DNA of 64,000 nucleotides. It comes from Saccostrea cucullata. Its lineage: Eukaryota. The position numbers are program-made. Below, piece by piece: positions 21,001 to 42,000 of the stretch. The stretch's first letter is position 1, and each line of letters starts with the position of its first letter. The stretch lies in contig NW_026928438.1 in the NCBI RefSeq assembly GCF_032062105.1, forward strand, positions 186,001-250,000. Reading direction: 5' to 3'.

Positions 21001-24000
21001 AATGTTCATAGATTCAATGTAATATATTCAATAACCAATTGCAAATACATATGGAAAATACATAATGTATATCATTCAAGATTAGATTCATAAAAAAAAA
21101 TAAATATTGGACTAAAATTATTTTTATTTTAAATTATTTTTTATATTCACACCTATATCTTCAGATCAATCTCTTTTTCATTTTTTATTTACCACATGAA
21201 TTTATTTTTCTTTTACATGCACTACTCTTTTGTGACAATGCACTGATGTATTTTAACATGTACTTGCTGTAAAATGAATACTCAGTAGAGGGATCCGCCA
21301 CATTATTTTTCGACGGGGAGGTTTCTCTACATGACATGCATAGATCATTTTAAAAAATCGTTTAAACAATGAATACACAACTATAGTACGATAATTAGGA
21401 AGAGGGATTGTTAAAGGATGTGTGGAAAACCTATTAATTCAATACATGTATATAGAAATTACGAAGTTTTAGTACATGTTTGAAAACCCCATCGATAGAA
21501 AATGATACAAGGGGCCTTAAAAAGTCAGTTATATTTACAATCACATACACATGGTCACATACAGCTTGGACATTGATGATGTGGTATCCTTTCCTATTTA
21601 CGAAGAAATTTTCGTCCTGTGATGGGGCCTGGATCCGCGTACATGAGTCCCATCAATGCATCCGACTACATTGGGGAAACCTGCTAGCCGGTAAACCCTG
21701 TTTTAATGCAATTTTTTTTTTGTTGCTTCAGGCCACTGAATAAAAGTGTCAGCTTTCGCAACCAGTGCTTCGGTGACTCTCTTAATGGTGCGGGATACTC
21801 TCCTTTTGTCAAACCCTGTCCAAACTTGAGTATCATGTATATTTTTTTCTATATGGAAAGACTATTTAATTAGCGTTTTGCGTTTAATCATACAGGATAT
21901 AACTACGAAATTTTCAAAGCACTGTGTCGTAGCTATTTTACTTGAACTTTCATCATAAAATTTCAACTTGAGTTTATTTTATAACAATTATGTAAAACAT
22001 GTTCTATAGTCTTTTAATTGTACCTAGAGTATCCCCGACAACCTGCAAAAAGCTGCCACTTGCAAGGTAGCGCAAGGTAATCATTACTTGATGCTGGACG
22101 CTATGCGCACAGTTCCTATTGGTGGCTCTTTCCAAGTCATTTTTCTTCTTAATTCAGCATCAGTCCAACCCTCTAATTTCGTGTGAAGTCGAAAAACACG
22201 CTGTTTTCTAGGTCCAGGCGGGTGATTTAAAAAGTTGGCGGCCATATTTAATCACGGTATTAACTTCTTAATCTACCTACCGTAGGTGGATTAAATCTAA
22301 CACAGATTTAACACCTTGTTATTGAACAGCACTTAACAATGTGGTTAAATTTAACACATTATTTAACACAGAGTAAACACTAAACACCTTTTGAACAACC
22401 AGGCCCAGAAGAATGGAAATTTATCTAGAAACATTAATATATTTATGTAGATATTTATTGTATCCCAAACAACAGGAATACAAGTGAAAAGGGTAGAAAG
22501 AAGAAAAAAAAAGAATATGATATGATTTTTAAGATTCCTTAAATGGGAGGAGTTCGTGCAACAACCTTTTAAGAAATCACAATTTAAGGAATATCTTACG
22601 AGAAATGTAAGACAAAATAAAAACTTTGTAACAGCCATTAAGACTACATATTTAGCAAATTTTAAAAACATATTCATAACTTTTAGGCTTGTTATCAATA
22701 AAGAATGATTCCATCGAAGCAATGAAAAAAAACCCTCTCATTTCCCTATCTGCACATTCTAACACAACTACAAATAGATCGGCCGCTGCGGCCGATAGTG
22801 ACTTAAGCTGCATATTTCCAATCCTGCCAGTTAATATTCCGCGGTTTTAAAATTTATAAAGATTCTAAAGTTTGAGATCTAGAATGAGGTAAAAAACGAG
22901 TTTTACTTTATTTAATTTCATGGACGTGTAACTATTTTCACAGCCTTCAAATAAAATTGTTTTTATATCTCAACTTTACAAAAACAGCCGAGTGATATTG
23001 CGATTAATATTGACTCGTGACTTTGACGCTAAATGATTACGTCCCCCCTTTTGTTGAAAACAGGGGTTTGAGGAAGTTCTAAACATAAAAAAAGAGATAT
23101 CTCTTTAACTTACAAAGATATCTCTCTGAAGAAAGAGTTATCTCTATTCACGAAAGAGATATCTCTTAGAAAAAGAGATATCTCACTAAGTAAACGAGAT
23201 ATCTCGCCGAGTATAAGAGATGTCTTTTTCTTAGAGAGATATCTCTTAAAGAAAGATATGGAGATAACGAACAGTATTCAATATCAAAGTTCATGAAACA
23301 ATACGAAATAGGAGAAGAGCAAACACGGACCTACGAAACATCAGAGGTTGGATCAGGTGCCATGAAGGAGTTAGTATCCCCTGCTGACCGGTCACACCCG
23401 CCGTGTGCTCTTTGTCATGGTCGGGAAATAACGGAGATATCCGTCGTCAACTCAGTGTATAAACAATGGACTAACAATTAGTATGAAAAACGTCAGTCAG
23501 CATTCGACTCAATGATGAATTGTATTTGCTGTCAAGGTCATTGTATCGACCTTAGAACTTACGAAATGATGACTTTAAACGAGACTGCTGATATTCTTGT
23601 TTCATCAACTTGCTTGTCAAGGGTGAAACAACATGGCGTTCGAAGGGAGCGGACGTGTCTATTGAGACGCTCTTTTTCCAACCGGTATCTGGCTGATTAA
23701 CTTGTTGGCTGTGTTACTATGTGTTACTATATGATGTCCCTATGTTGATATATCCTATTTGAAGATTCTATTCTGATATTTGGGTGCATTTTTTGCAGTG
23801 TTTTGTCAAAAAAGAGTGTTTCTATATATAGCGATACAGGTAAACGGGCAATAGTGCTATAGTGAGACGTGTTCACCTGTTCACTCCGTGTTAAACGTGC
23901 GTGAAGGAATTATTAAAAACACTCGCTTATTCCAAAATTATTCCAAAATGCCGGGGTCGGGTACAAAGAAAGCTTCTAAAGAAAAAGAAAAAGGGGATTC

Positions 24001-39000: not shown

Positions 39001-42000
39001 TAATATACATATAATATTTGGGAGAGGTTTAACTATACTTGATCTAAAAGGTTAGAAAGCCGAAATTTCCCTTCCCATTACTTAATGTCTTATTGCTGTG
39101 TTTCTAAAGTGGAGAGTAGATAAATAACTCTCTTTGACTAACTGTCACTTCACACATGTGAACTTTCTCTTTCGAGGGACCAATCTCCACGCATGTTGCA
39201 CAGAAAACATTCGCTAAAACAAAAGTGCACTTGCATCTTGTGTACATTGTTAAGGGTTTCAAAAAGCTCCATGCATCAAATGATACAATGCCATGAAAAG
39301 AGTTTTGCTGCAAACAAATCAAGAATGGTTTCTTTAATTTTATAAGTGCATCATTACCTTGAAATCCAATGAAGTCGGCATATTCTTTACTAATACGTCA
39401 AATAAAATGATGAGATTGATTTCACAATCACGGAAAATGTTTATCGGCGTAACAATATATCTGCATTGAATTAGGTCATTACATTGCGGCGTTTTTTTTC
39501 CTACAGTAGGCTTAGTGTACATGTATATATATATATGTATAGTTATAATGCGCAGAGTTGCATGATTTGCGTCATTGCACTATAGATGGTGAAAAGCAAT
39601 ATACTAAGTTATCATTATTAATGTTAGTAAAATATAAAGAATCTATGTCTCTGCATAGGAAGGTAAACACATTCCGTATTGGCATTTGTTGTACTCTCAG
39701 AGCTAAATTATTCTGCACGTACGTGTATATATGTCTAATAATATATTTTAGTTTTATTGAGTCAACTCTAATCTTTTGCATCGTGTTGCATATACTGTCA
39801 GAAATTTTAAATGTGCTCTTGTGTTTAGTATGGCAAACCTTTTTGCTATTTATTTGAAAAATAAAATCTATCTTGAAGTTACAGAGATATCTCTCATTTT
39901 AGAGAAATATCTCTAAAAAATAGAGATATCTTTCAACTTAAAGAGACACATCCGTTTCAAATTTGGATATTGTACTTGAAAAAAAAAGACGATAATGGTA
40001 ATCTAAGGACCAAGCTATATGATAAACGTGATGACTTTAACTTTTCTATCGTCAACTTCCCTTACTTATGCAGCAAAATACCTTCATCACCTGCATACGG
40101 AGTATATATATCTAAGTTGATTCGATACGCAAGAGCATGCTCTACGTGAGAACAATTTCTAAAACGAGGTAAATTATTGACAAGCAAGTTTTTTTTTTTA
40201 TTTTTTTTTTTTCTTTATATTGCCCGACATCACAATTTGTATGAAATTATAAACAATTTATGAGCTTTTTTACATTTTGACTGCTTTCATTCACACACTC
40301 TTACTGACTTACATACAGTCTCATTCTTTAGATCATGAAAATAATAACAAAATGGTTTGGGAAAAATCAAGAATTCATATATATTATTACAGCTTTACTT
40401 AGAACATATATTTACTACTCTGTATAGATTTATATTGACAAATCTCTTTATGAAAAACAAACAGTATATAATATTTTTATAATAAGCTCATTGAAATATG
40501 TTTTTCCATAAAGACCATTCTTTTTCAAATTTATCTATGTGGAAATTTTTGATAGCTATACATTTTTCAATATTATGTTTCAATTTAATGTGATTTAATA
40601 AGCCCAAAAGATTTGGAATTTTATCTTGCATTAAACTTGTGAAAATGTATTGTTTTGATTATAATATTATAAAATTCTTGACTCTGTTGTTATATGTCAT
40701 TGGTATTTCACCTAGAATAACATTTTCAACATTAAAACCAACTCTTTTTTTCATTGTTTTGTAAATATGTAAACTGAGGTTGGTCCATAGAGATAAAACT
40801 TTTTCACAACCAATGAAAACATGTTGAATAGTTTCTACTTCTTGTTTACAAAAAGTACAAATATCTGAATTCTTTATCTTAATTTTTTTTAAATAAGAGT
40901 TAACAGGTAGAATCCTATGTAAAATTCTAAATTGTAACCATTGAATTGTTGAGTCCTTTGTTGTTTTAAAACATACTTTAAAAACATCTTTTACACAAAT
41001 TTCATTGATTCCATATGGAGATAATTCTACATTCCACTTGGATAAAGCTTTTAAAACAGTTTCCTTTGTATTAAGACAATTGTAAATATATTTTGTACAT
41101 TTTTCATACAACAGTATGTCTTGAAAATAAACAGGTAAAAAAGGTCCATACATATTTTTCACTGAGAATCTATCTATTGACATATCCTTTATGTACTTTG
41201 AGATTGAACAAACAACACTGTTATACTGCATTATACATACTGTAGAAATGTTAAATTTTTGTTGAAATGTCTTTTGAGTAAGAAAAATACCCCTTTCATC
41301 TAAAAAATCACGGATAGTTTTAACACCATTCTTATACCAATCTTGAATAAAAATGCTTTTGTTATTAACTTTGATTTTTGAGTTATACCATACTGGTATA
41401 TTTAAGAAATTGTCTTGAGAAACTGAATCATTCAGAGTTTTTATAACTTCAAGCCATGAAATAAAAACATCTTGCCAGAATTTATTGTTTTTTGTAATTA
41501 AGATTTTACGAACAAAATCGTCCCCAAAATCAAGTAGCTTGTTTAAAATGTCATTACCATTTACAGCCATGAATAAATCTATCCATGGTTTGTTACAACA
41601 ATAGTTTGACAATCTTTTAATCCAAGAACATTTCAAGGCCATTATAAATTTGCTTATATTAATCATTTTAAGTCCCCCTAATAAAAATTTTTGTATGTTG
41701 ATAAGAAAATCGGTAAAAGTTTTTATCTGGAGAGTTTTACCGGTTTCAAGGTGATAGCGTGCTCATAATAGATCTTGTCCGCGAACTTTCCTAACAACCT
41801 TCGTACAAGTGGTTCACGAAAAGGGGTGATCGAGTGTGTAAAGGCTCGTATAACGAGGGGCTACTTTTTTTCGAGTTTATTTTAACAGTAAATCTTAATT
41901 TAGATACCTTAGATACCCCTCCACACACACACCCTCTCACTTCTGGTCATCTTCCCAAGTCAAGAGTTTCTGATCCGCTCCGCTCCACTAGCGGAGCGGA

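What the first reader, a model, noticed from the sequence alone, without database searches (positions are those of the whole stretch)
23621..41685. Mu-killer-like architecture: a LINE promoter reading into a hairpin containing its own antisense 3' end
Seen: a full-length LINE with intact 5' UTR points into palindrome 1, whose arms contain the last ~1.5 kb of that LINE plus Penelope-like, RTE and mariner-like sequences. Established: L1-type elements often read through their poly-A signal, and maize Mu killer is an inverted partial transposon duplication whose hairpin RNA silences the family in trans. Inference: read-through here could form up to ~6.9 kb of dsRNA, a self-driven endo-siRNA/piRNA source against several TE families at once. 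No expression evidence is available from sequence alone.
Basis: inference. Interest (0 to 1): 0.72.

Follow-up and report, generated by a model that had tools for sequence, protein, structure and literature searches.

The report
LINE running into twin giant palindromes
A young LINE retrotransposon does point into a 13.9-kb near-perfect palindrome that holds its own tail in reverse, but a second palindrome butts directly against the first, so the pair looks like an assembly fold-back error or a break-repair scar rather than a purpose-built transposon silencer.

Summary
The architecture is in the sequence. A 5,681-bp L1-type LINE (23622-29302, 13-14-bp target-site duplication, A23 tail) reads on the + strand into a palindrome with 6.93-kb arms (27809-34739 / 34752-41685, 12-nt spacer). 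The arms hold the LINE's last 1,494 bp in both orientations, plus a Penelope-like and an RTE fragment. No mariner was found, and ORF2 has an in-frame stop 56 codons early.

The finding leaves out a second palindrome (41685-48211 / 48368-54888). It abuts the first at a junction with 1 nt of overlap, and both outer boundaries are natural sequence. In palindrome 1, 28 of 29 arm substitutions lie in the TE pieces, and 2.9 kb of non-TE arm has none.

The LINE therefore seems cut by a fold-back boundary by accident. The pair is either a long-read or assembly artefact (my lean, about 0.5) or a very young break-repair scar (about 0.35).

Nothing supports a Mu killer-like silencer. It would need at least 10.9 kb of read-through past the LINE's own AATAAA. 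It covers the 3' end, not the promoter. The likely host group (molluscs) showed no dedicated endo-siRNA pathway in one survey. Raw-read validation would decide.

The parts
23608..23621 (+). Upstream copy of the LINE's target-site duplication, (A)ACTTGCTTGTCAA
   Evidence: Read directly. The same 13-14 nt follow the A-tail at 29303-29316.
23622..29302 (+). L1-type LINE, 5,681 bp. 5' UTR 23622-23947; ORF1 23948-24868; spacer with a 54-bp x3.1 tandem repeat; ORF2 25200-28835; 3' UTR; AATAAA at 29278; A23 tail.
   Evidence: ORF2 carries APE, RT and zf-RVT domains and aligns over its whole length with human L1 ORF2p (E 7.5e-91).
28833..28835 (+). In-frame stop that ends ORF2 56 codons before the family's usual end. 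The same stop is in the right-arm copy (stop codon 40659-40661 on the - strand).
   Evidence: tblastn of homologues runs through the stop to 29003. The right-arm frame appears.
27809..34739 (.). Left arm of palindrome 1 (6,931 nt): LINE 3' end 27809-29302, TSD, Penelope-like piece, 2.9 kb without a recognised TE protein, RTE piece, and 0.7 kb of AT-rich sequence.
29304..29558 (-). C-terminal fragment of a Penelope-like RT family. The same copy continues at 23477-23620 on the - strand, so the LINE sits inside it.
   Evidence: P0265 residues 894-977 map to 29558-29304 and residues 974-1021 map to 23620-23477.
32435..34014 (+). Decayed RTE-type fragment: protein residues 2-175 and 442-827, with an internal deletion and frameshifts.
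   Evidence: Homologues carry PF03372, PF00078 and PF20049.
34740..34751 (.). 12-nt spacer at the centre of palindrome 1
34752..41685 (.). Right arm of palindrome 1. It contains the antisense LINE 3' end at 40200-41685 with a T11-A-T12 tail remnant at 40189-40212.
41685..41685 (.). Novel junction: the LINE-internal position (equivalent to 27809) is joined to the start of palindrome 2 with 1 nt of overlap and no filler.
   Evidence: The repeat unit at 41685-41805 is cut here, whereas its mirror copy runs on across 54888.
41685..48211 (.). Left arm of palindrome 2 (6,527 nt)
48212..48367 (.). 156-nt spacer at the centre of palindrome 2
48368..54888 (.). Right arm of palindrome 2. It continues naturally into the sequence to its right.
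   Evidence: 54768-55024 aligns with 56332-56576 across the boundary.

Best explanation
Two ordinary stretches of TE-rich DNA are each followed by their own reverse complement, and the two reverse complements are butt-joined at 41685. The stretches are pre + LINE + 5.4 kb of flank, ending at 34745, and a 6.5-kb stretch that leads into the right-hand flank.

I think this zig-zag most likely arose during sequencing or assembly. Fold-back or otherwise chimeric long reads, or a contig path that turned back at two dead ends and switched copies inside the multi-copy LINE, would produce it. Under this reading the LINE is cut at 27809 by accident, there is no 6.9-kb hairpin locus in the animal, and the arm differences come from consensus cross-talk with other TE copies or with the other haplotype.

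Shown: the structure, the natural outer boundaries, the blunt inner junction, and the TE-confined differences. Inferred: that the fold-backs arose in vitro or in silico.
For: - The two palindromes have similar total size (13.9 and 13.2 kb) and share one boundary base. The join has 1 nt of overlap and no filler.
- Both outer boundaries are natural. The LINE has its TSD, and its flanks are colinear in one Penelope-like ORF. A repeat family runs across 54888. All novel joins are therefore the two centres and 41685.
- In palindrome 1, 28 of 29 arm substitutions lie in the LINE, Penelope-like and RTE pieces, which make up 48% of the arm (binomial 1.9e-8; 10 of 11 when clusters are collapsed, p 0.004). 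There are 0 substitutions in 2,876 bp of non-TE arm.
- The LINE differences run up to the tail (A23 against A12-T-A11) and then stop. At the 5 amino-acid differences, states seen in homologues are split between the arms. This fits cross-talk between copies, or two different LINE copies, better than uniform ageing.
- About 8 of the 18 indel events are homopolymer-length changes.
- Precedent from passages read: ONT genomic libraries gave 0.55-0.6% fold-back reads, some with no spacer and some with about 2 kb of spacer (PMC12870357). Whole-genome amplification gives reads with one or more palindromes (PMC6218980). The published Adineta vaga palindromes were later judged assembly artefacts (PMC8494291).
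- Long, near-identical palindromes with short spacers are the most fragile kind in vivo (PMC7999016, passages).
Against: - I cannot name a simple assembler route to a gap-free join at 41685. The window has no N, so this is not a plain scaffold gap.
- Arms copied from one fold-back read should be identical, yet palindrome 2 shows multi-base indels (3+3+3, 2+11, 5 and 6 nt) and 16 substitutions, about 8 of them scattered singles with a natural-looking excess of transitions.
- A 12-nt spacer is what real fold-back priming at short inverted repeats gives. Yeast inverted duplications have 3-15 bp natural inverted repeats at their centres (PMC10622511), and repeats of 5-9 bp with 3-12 bp spacers can drive large palindromic duplications (PMC7999016).
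- HiFi data showed virtually no fold-back reads (PMC12870357), and the sequencing technology of this assembly is unknown to me.
- No reads, depth or second assembly could be examined.
Confidence: 0.5

Rival explanations
1. The pair is a real, very young germ-line rearrangement with no dedicated function. One double-strand break occurred between what are now the two centres. Both ends folded back on short inverted repeats and were copied (fold-back priming, or sister fusion with later breakage). The two extended ends were then rejoined at 41685. The LINE was simply near the break. Any dsRNA or small RNA would be incidental.
For: - The layout is what a break with fold-back at both ends would give: outer boundaries natural, novel ends joined to each other with 1 nt of microhomology.
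- The arms are similar in length (6,931 and 6,527 nt), as symmetric resection would give.
- The 12-nt spacer matches the range reported for fold-back centres (PMC10622511 and PMC7999016, passages).
- Differences between arms look like natural variants: transitions in excess among the scattered singles, unit-length indels in short tandem repeats, and LINE residues also seen in homologues.
- Each cluster of differences could be one ectopic conversion tract.
- Fold-back inverted duplications are a known germ-line class (PMC3907307, abstract in the search listing).
Against: - Known fold-back products are one-sided and pass through a hairpin-capped or dicentric chromosome (PMC10622511, passages). 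A two-sided product needs further breaks, or an unexplained conversion of two hairpins into linear ends.
- A 6.9-kb palindrome with a 12-nt spacer should be fragile (PMC7999016).
- Divergence of 1.0% in the LINE part against 0 substitutions in 2,876 bp next to it needs a conversion tract reaching the very end of homology.
- Adjacency of 34745 and 48290 in an ancestral allele could not be tested. The RTE homology does not continue from one to the other.
Confidence: 0.35
2. The palindrome is real, and transcripts started at the LINE's own promoter run through its poly-A site and both arms. They fold into a long hairpin that is diced, or fed to PIWI proteins, and silences the LINE, Penelope-like and RTE families in trans.
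For: - Orientation and geometry fit. The LINE is on the + strand, and the antisense copy of its last 1,494 bp lies downstream on the same strand.
- The LINE is young, with a TSD, an A23 tail and long ORFs.
- L1 read-through into 3' flanks is established (PMC9311842, start of abstract in the search listing; PMC13009371, passages).
- Inverted TE duplications that start silencing are known in maize (PMC3440606, abstract; bioRxiv 10.1101/2020.01.07.897926, start of abstract in the search listing).
Against: - No expression data.
- At least 10.9 kb of read-through is needed, past the element's own AATAAA and 11 more hexamers in the left arm alone.
- Only the 3' end is covered, not the promoter.
- The host is probably a mollusc, where a survey found no dedicated endo-siRNA pathway (PMC12479628, passages).
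- The Penelope-like piece is only 255 bp and the RTE piece is decayed.
- This LINE copy has a truncated ORF2.
- The locus may not exist in the animal.
Confidence: 0.06
3. The palindromes are real and lie in a TE-rich, gene-poor stretch that acts as a piRNA source. Antisense TE pieces give piRNAs whether or not a hairpin forms, and the LINE promoter plays no special role.
For: - Outside the LINE, none of the 20 open frames of 90 aa or more that were scanned has a protein domain above the Pfam cut-off.
- Penelope-like, RTE and satellite fragments are scattered through the window.
- piRNAs are abundant in molluscan soma and gonads, and clusters are TE-rich (PMC6128900, start of abstract in the search listing; PMC12479628, passages).
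Against: No small-RNA data. TE fragments here lie in both orientations, as in any TE-rich DNA. Nothing marks this window as a cluster.
Confidence: 0.05

Closest known systems
Maize Mu killer (Muk)
   Same: An inverted partial duplication of an autonomous transposon that could give a long hairpin RNA if transcribed through.
   Different: Muk duplicates the 5' end (TIRA and part of mudrA), gives a hairpin of about 4 kb, and is read through from a flanking gene (PMC3440606, abstract). Here the 3' end is duplicated together with 5.4 kb of unrelated flank, and the proposed driver is the element's own promoter. No transcript or small RNA is known, and the host is an animal.
Fold-back inversions / inverted duplications after a double-strand break (yeast, human)
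   Same: Head-to-head duplication with a short spacer at the centre; a 12-nt spacer is in the reported range (PMC10622511 and PMC7999016, passages; PMC3907307, abstract in the search listing).
   Different: Described cases are one-sided and pass through hairpin-capped or dicentric chromosomes, with telomere capture or centromere loss. Here two fold-backs face away from one point and their far ends are joined to each other.
Fold-back and palindromic artefacts of long-read libraries and assemblies
   Same: Near-identical arms, tiny or no spacer, and more than one palindrome in a row (PMC12870357, PMC6218980, PMC8494291, PMC7953838; passages).
   Different: Those reports concern single reads or scaffolding of haplotypes. 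I have no reads, the window has no gap, and the arms of palindrome 2 differ by multi-base indels.
Hairpin-RNA (hpRNA) and inverted-repeat endo-siRNA loci of Drosophila and mouse oocytes
   Same: A long inverted repeat on one strand as a possible Dicer substrate (PMC5392987, abstract in the search listing; the rest is recalled).
   Different: Those loci have measured 21-22-nt products and a dedicated or oocyte-specific Dicer. The mollusc survey found no such pathway (PMC12479628).
L1 3' transduction
   Same: Read-through of the LINE's own poly-A signal into the flank is the first step the model needs.
   Different: Most measured read-throughs are short: 248 of 349 were under 100 bp in PMC13009371. 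The model needs 10.9-12.4 kb.

Membership tests
Mu killer-type hairpin silencer | Inverted duplication of part of an autonomous transposon | tested here: met
   The LINE's last 1,494 bp are present in both arms.
Mu killer-type hairpin silencer | The duplicated part covers the element's 5' end or promoter (TIRA and 5' mudrA in Muk) | tested here: not met
   The arms start at 27809 inside ORF2. The 5' UTR (23622-23947) lies outside them. The Muk feature is taken from the PMC3440606 abstract.
Mu killer-type hairpin silencer | The hairpin transcript is made by read-through and processed into small RNAs that silence the family in trans | not testable with these tools
   No RNA data. Only distances and poly-A hexamers could be counted.
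L1-clade LINE | Two ORFs; ORF2 with an N-terminal APE endonuclease, RT and a C-terminal zinc domain; poly-A tail; target-site duplication | tested here: met
   End-to-end match to human L1 ORF2p, E 7.5e-91. ORF1 has no Pfam or PDB match.
L1-clade LINE | Full coding capacity (retrotransposition-competent copy) | tested here: not met
   An in-frame stop at 28833-28835 lies 56 codons before the end reached by the homologues aligned through it; P0001, P0013 and P0096 are printed through the stop.
Penelope-like element | RT of the PLE type joined to a GIY-YIG endonuclease | tested here: inconclusive
   The fragment matches 3,885 of 3,934 candidates. Some longer relatives carry PF00078 and PF26215. 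Of 5 relatives scanned, 1 (P0265) has a GIY-YIG match at residues 155-244, at 21.3 bits, below the 22.6 cut-off. The window piece itself holds only the C-terminal 85 residues or so. That an N-terminal GIY-YIG marks a permuted PLE clade is recalled, not tested.
RTE-clade LINE | A single ORF of about 1,000 aa with APE and RT | tested here: met
   Homologues of 976-1,050 aa with PF03372, PF00078 and PF20049 align to 32435-34014 in order, with residues 176-441 missing.
mariner/Tc1 transposon | DDE/D transposase remnant or terminal inverted repeats of the family | tested here: not met
   No transposase domain in the Pfam scans of the arm's open frames (31 of its 89 frames of 25-44 aa were not scanned), and no hit to recalled motifs. 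There is only an unclassified 24-nt inverted pair at 29425/31426 and a hairpin repeat at 30473-30681. No TE nucleotide library was available.
Biological fold-back inversion | Head-to-head duplication centred on a short natural inverted repeat with a short spacer | tested here: met
   12-nt and 156-nt spacers. The short repeat itself cannot be told apart from the arms.
Biological fold-back inversion | The structure is present in the DNA of the organism | not testable with these tools
   No reads, depth, second assembly or related genome was within reach.
Long-read fold-back artefact | Supported only by reads that fold at their own midpoint; arms at reduced depth | not testable with these tools
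   No reads.
piRNA cluster | A dense run of uniquely mapping 26-31-nt small RNAs | not testable with these tools
   No small-RNA data.

The most novel reading that the evidence does not exclude
Both palindromes are real, and the LINE's own promoter drives a transcript of more than 18 kb whose 6.9-kb stem feeds small-RNA production against three retroelement families at once. This would be an animal counterpart of Mu killer, driven by the element it silences, in a phylum where no dedicated endo-siRNA pathway has been found. The products would then be piRNAs or an unrecognised class.
Probability: 0.05. Interest if true: 0.75.

Novelty: new member of a known kind. Interest (0 to 1): 0.25.

Why it matters
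If the structure is real, it is a clean natural example of two fold-back duplications facing away from one break point, with a young LINE cut by one of them. That would interest people who study break repair and palindrome stability. The locus would also be a ready test of whether a mollusc turns a long endogenous hairpin into small RNAs.

If it is an artefact, which I think slightly more likely, its value is as a warning. Large near-perfect palindromes in long-read assemblies need read-level proof before any biology is built on them.

As a sequence feature it belongs to a known kind, a TE-bearing inverted duplication. If reads show that it is not in the DNA, it is not a real feature at all.

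Tried and rejected
- **Ancestral adjacency of the two centres.** I looked for a TE or ORF that runs from 34745 into 48368 onwards. RTE homology ends at about 34014 and does not resume in palindrome 2 or beyond. Sensitive short-word BLAST of the inner arm ends gave only chance-level matches.
- **A 9-mer shared in inverse orientation by the two centres.** 94 of 5,000 shuffles reached it. I found no mechanism that predicts the observed sequence and treat it as chance.
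- **The right arm as a retrocopy of a read-through LINE transcript (3' transduction) inserted in reverse.** Rejected: there is no A/T run and no poly-A signal at the centre.
- **Twin priming.** Rejected: the inverted part includes 5.4 kb of non-LINE flank.
- **Cruciform resolution at one inverted repeat.** Rejected: the two centres would then share the same spacer, and they do not.
- **dupINVdup and inverted triplication (ODIRA-type) layouts.** Rejected: they predict direct repeats or interleaved arms, and the self-comparison shows none.
- **Classifying ORF1.** Pfam and PDB gave nothing.
- **Rfam.** Only a tRNA-like hit far from the locus.
- **Not done.** No search of other genomes. The genome collection holds only bacteria and archaea, and the phage, plasmid and E. 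coli collections do not bear on an animal contig. Other LINE copies, other alleles and the species itself therefore stay unchecked. Supplementary files of papers were not consulted. The window is not taken for human.

Full report
**What is there**

The window has no N and about 32% G+C. A LINE lies on the + strand at 23622-29302. It is bounded by the duplicated target (A)ACTTGCTTGTCAA at 23608-23621 and 29303-29316, and it ends in AATAAA (29278) and an A23 tail.

The LINE has a 326-nt leader and ORF1 at 23948-24868, which has no Pfam or PDB match. A spacer follows, containing a 54-bp tandem repeat. ORF2 starts at 25200 and carries Exo_endo_phos, RVT_1 and zf-RVT domains. It aligns over its whole length with solved human L1 ORF2p, E 7.5e-91, far better than with R2 proteins. 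It is therefore an L1-type element.

ORF2 is not fully intact. It stops at 28833-28835, while the homologues aligned through it run on for 56 more conserved codons to 29003; P0001, P0013 and P0096 are printed through the stop. The window is not human-like. The best ORF2 relatives are 66% identical and unnamed, and the one named relative comes from a clam-symbiont bin.

**The flanks of the LINE are one older element**

The open frame at 29346-29549 on the - strand belongs to a very large family: 3,885 of 3,934 candidates matched at E up to 0.001. Its longer members carry RT and PF26215. One of 5 scanned members also has a sub-threshold N-terminal GIY-YIG match. The language-model atlas points the same way.

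Residues 894-977 of P0265 map to 29558-29304 and residues 974-1021 map to 23620-23477, both on the - strand. The LINE therefore inserted into a Penelope-like copy. This confirms that the left boundary region of palindrome 1 is natural sequence.

**The palindromes**

- Palindrome 1 has arms 27809-34739 and 34752-41685 with a 12-nt spacer.
- Palindrome 2 follows at once, with arms 41685-48211 and 48368-54888 and a 156-nt spacer.
- The two share base 41685. The join has 1 nt of overlap and no filler.
- The right boundary of palindrome 2 is natural, because a repeat family aligns across it (54768-55024 against 56332-56576). The mirror copy of that repeat is cut at 41685.

The window therefore reads pre-A-A'-B-B'-post. 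Only three joins are novel: the two centres and 41685.

**Arm content**

Arm A holds these pieces:
- the LINE's last 1,494 bp;
- 255 bp of the Penelope-like element;
- 2.9 kb without a recognisable TE protein;
- an RTE-type fragment at 32435-34014 with an internal deletion;
- 0.7 kb of AT-rich DNA.

The RTE fragment's relatives include oyster proteins at 88-92% identity and schistosome proteins at about 75-82%, over the roughly 60% of the 95-aa query that aligns.

I found no mariner. There was no transposase domain in Pfam scans of the arm's 42 open frames of 45 aa or more (14 of them re-scanned at E up to 5) and of 58 of its 89 frames of 25-44 aa. There was no hit to hallmark motifs that I recalled from memory. 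A nucleotide TE library was not available, so a non-coding mariner derivative cannot be excluded.

**How the arms differ**

Palindrome 1 shows 31 substitutions and 7 indel events in the alignment. Of these, 2 substitutions and 2 indels belong to the spacer. Of the 29 arm substitutions:
- 15 lie in the LINE piece (1.0%);
- 1 lies in the Penelope-like piece;
- 12 lie in the RTE piece, 10 of them within 88 bp;
- 1 lies elsewhere.

None lies in the 2,876 bp from 29559 to 32434. The binomial probability is 1.9e-8, or 0.004 when clusters are collapsed. The LINE differences run up to the tail, which is A23 on the left and A12-T-A11 on the right, and then stop. At the five amino-acid differences, each arm matches the majority of ten homologues at two sites.

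Palindrome 2 shows 16 substitutions and 11 indel events. These include indels of 3+3+3, 2+11, 5 and 6 nt, and one cluster of substitutions.

Outside the multi-copy pieces the arms are thus all but identical. This means either a very young duplication or none at all.

**Origin**

I weighed two readings.

*Artefact.* Fold-back reads make up 0.55-0.6% of ONT genomic reads, and some have no spacer (PMC12870357, passages). Amplified DNA gives reads with one or more palindromes (PMC6218980, passages). Published palindromes in Adineta vaga were later judged assembly errors (PMC8494291, passages; see also PMC7953838).

TE-confined differences fit consensus cross-talk with other copies, or a switch of the contig path between two LINE copies. 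A post-hoc lead for the latter is the hexamer ATCAAC. It marks the left edge of the LINE's TSD (23604) and recurs 15-17 nt before 54888. That is where a TSD would begin if 41685 were the 5' junction of a second, 5'-truncated LINE. The chance of this is about 0.005 by my estimate.

Against the artefact reading, I cannot give a simple route to a gap-free join at 41685, and the indels of palindrome 2 look natural.

*Real.* Fold-back priming at short inverted repeats with short spacers is well documented (PMC10622511 and PMC7999016, passages). A break between the two centres with fold-back at both ends would give exactly this layout, with arms of similar length.

However, the described pathway leads to hairpin-capped and dicentric chromosomes, not to two linear ends that rejoin. 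Long palindromes with short spacers are also the most fragile kind (PMC7999016).

I put the artefact at about 0.5 and a real but incidental rearrangement at about 0.35.

**The proposed function**

- The antisense LINE piece begins 10,898 nt, and ends 12,383 nt, past the LINE's poly-A site.
- On the way lie the element's own AATAAA, then 6 AATAAA and 5 ATTAAA in the left arm, and 12 AATAAA and 5 ATTAAA in the right arm.
- In human L1, most measured read-throughs are under 100 bp, 248 of 349, and often end at poly-A signals (PMC13009371, passages). Applying this to the present element is inference.
- Mu killer covers the element's 5' end and is driven by a neighbouring gene (PMC3440606, abstract). 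Here only the 3' end is covered.
- If the host is a mollusc, as the named relatives suggest, a survey of molluscs found no evidence of a dedicated endo-siRNA pathway despite many inverted repeats, while piRNAs are abundant (PMC12479628, passages). piRNA production needs an antisense TE in a precursor, not a hairpin.

**Limits**

No reads, depth, RNA, second allele or related genome could be examined. I searched the paper library nine times. I saw no report of a LINE-driven hairpin silencer of this layout. Those searches were not designed to prove absence, and supplements were not seen.

**Verdict**

The locus is a TE-bearing inverted duplication of a known kind, if it exists in the animal at all. 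Interest is low until raw reads confirm the structure.

Noticed in passing
41685-54888: A second near-perfect palindrome (arms 6,527 and 6,521 nt, 156-nt spacer) abuts palindrome 1 at a shared base. Any account of palindrome 1 has to explain both.
   Followed up: yes
28833-28835 and 40659-40661: ORF2 of the LINE ends at an in-frame stop 56 codons before the end reached by the homologues aligned through it (P0001, P0013 and P0096 are printed through the stop). Both arms carry the stop.
   Followed up: yes
23477-23620 and 29304-29558 (- strand); also 2055-2429 (+), 4511-4645 (-), 17167-17265 (-): The LINE is inserted in a copy of a very abundant Penelope-like family. One relative has a weak N-terminal GIY-YIG match, which suggests a permuted-domain clade. 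Further fragments of the family lie elsewhere in the window.
   Followed up: partly
32435-34014 (+) and 15079-15432 (+): RTE-type fragments whose closest named relatives are oyster proteins (88-92% identity) and schistosome proteins (about 75-82%) over about 57 residues. The spread fits the horizontal transfer known for RTE elements. No tree was made.
   Followed up: no
23604 and 54871: The hexamer ATCAAC lies at the left edge of the LINE's target-site duplication and again 15-17 nt before the outer boundary of palindrome 2. This is a post-hoc hint that 41685 could be the 5' junction of a second, truncated LINE.
   Followed up: partly
34730 and 41685; 34737 and 48323: Two short matches between junctions. 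AAATTTTTG lies at the inner end of arm A and at the start of arm B. TGATCCTTA/TAAGGATCA lie in inverse orientation at the two centres (94 of 5,000 shuffles reach it). No mechanism was found.
   Followed up: partly
18459-19188, related inverted copy 7697-7845: A 148-bp tandem repeat of 5 units at 85% match, with a single related unit in reverse orientation 10.6 kb away.
   Followed up: no
30473-30681 (mirror 38811-39019): A 216-nt self-complementary repeat at 80%, with a core of 56-nt arms and a 17-nt loop. It looks like a MITE or hairpin element, unclassified.
   Followed up: no
63455-63526 (+): A tRNA-like sequence (Rfam tRNA, 44.6 bits). ARAGORN could not assign the anticodon. It may be a tRNA-derived SINE head.
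   Followed up: no
24861-25028: A 54-bp tandem repeat (3.1 units, 90% match) spans the end of ORF1 and the spacer before ORF2 of the LINE.
   Followed up: no
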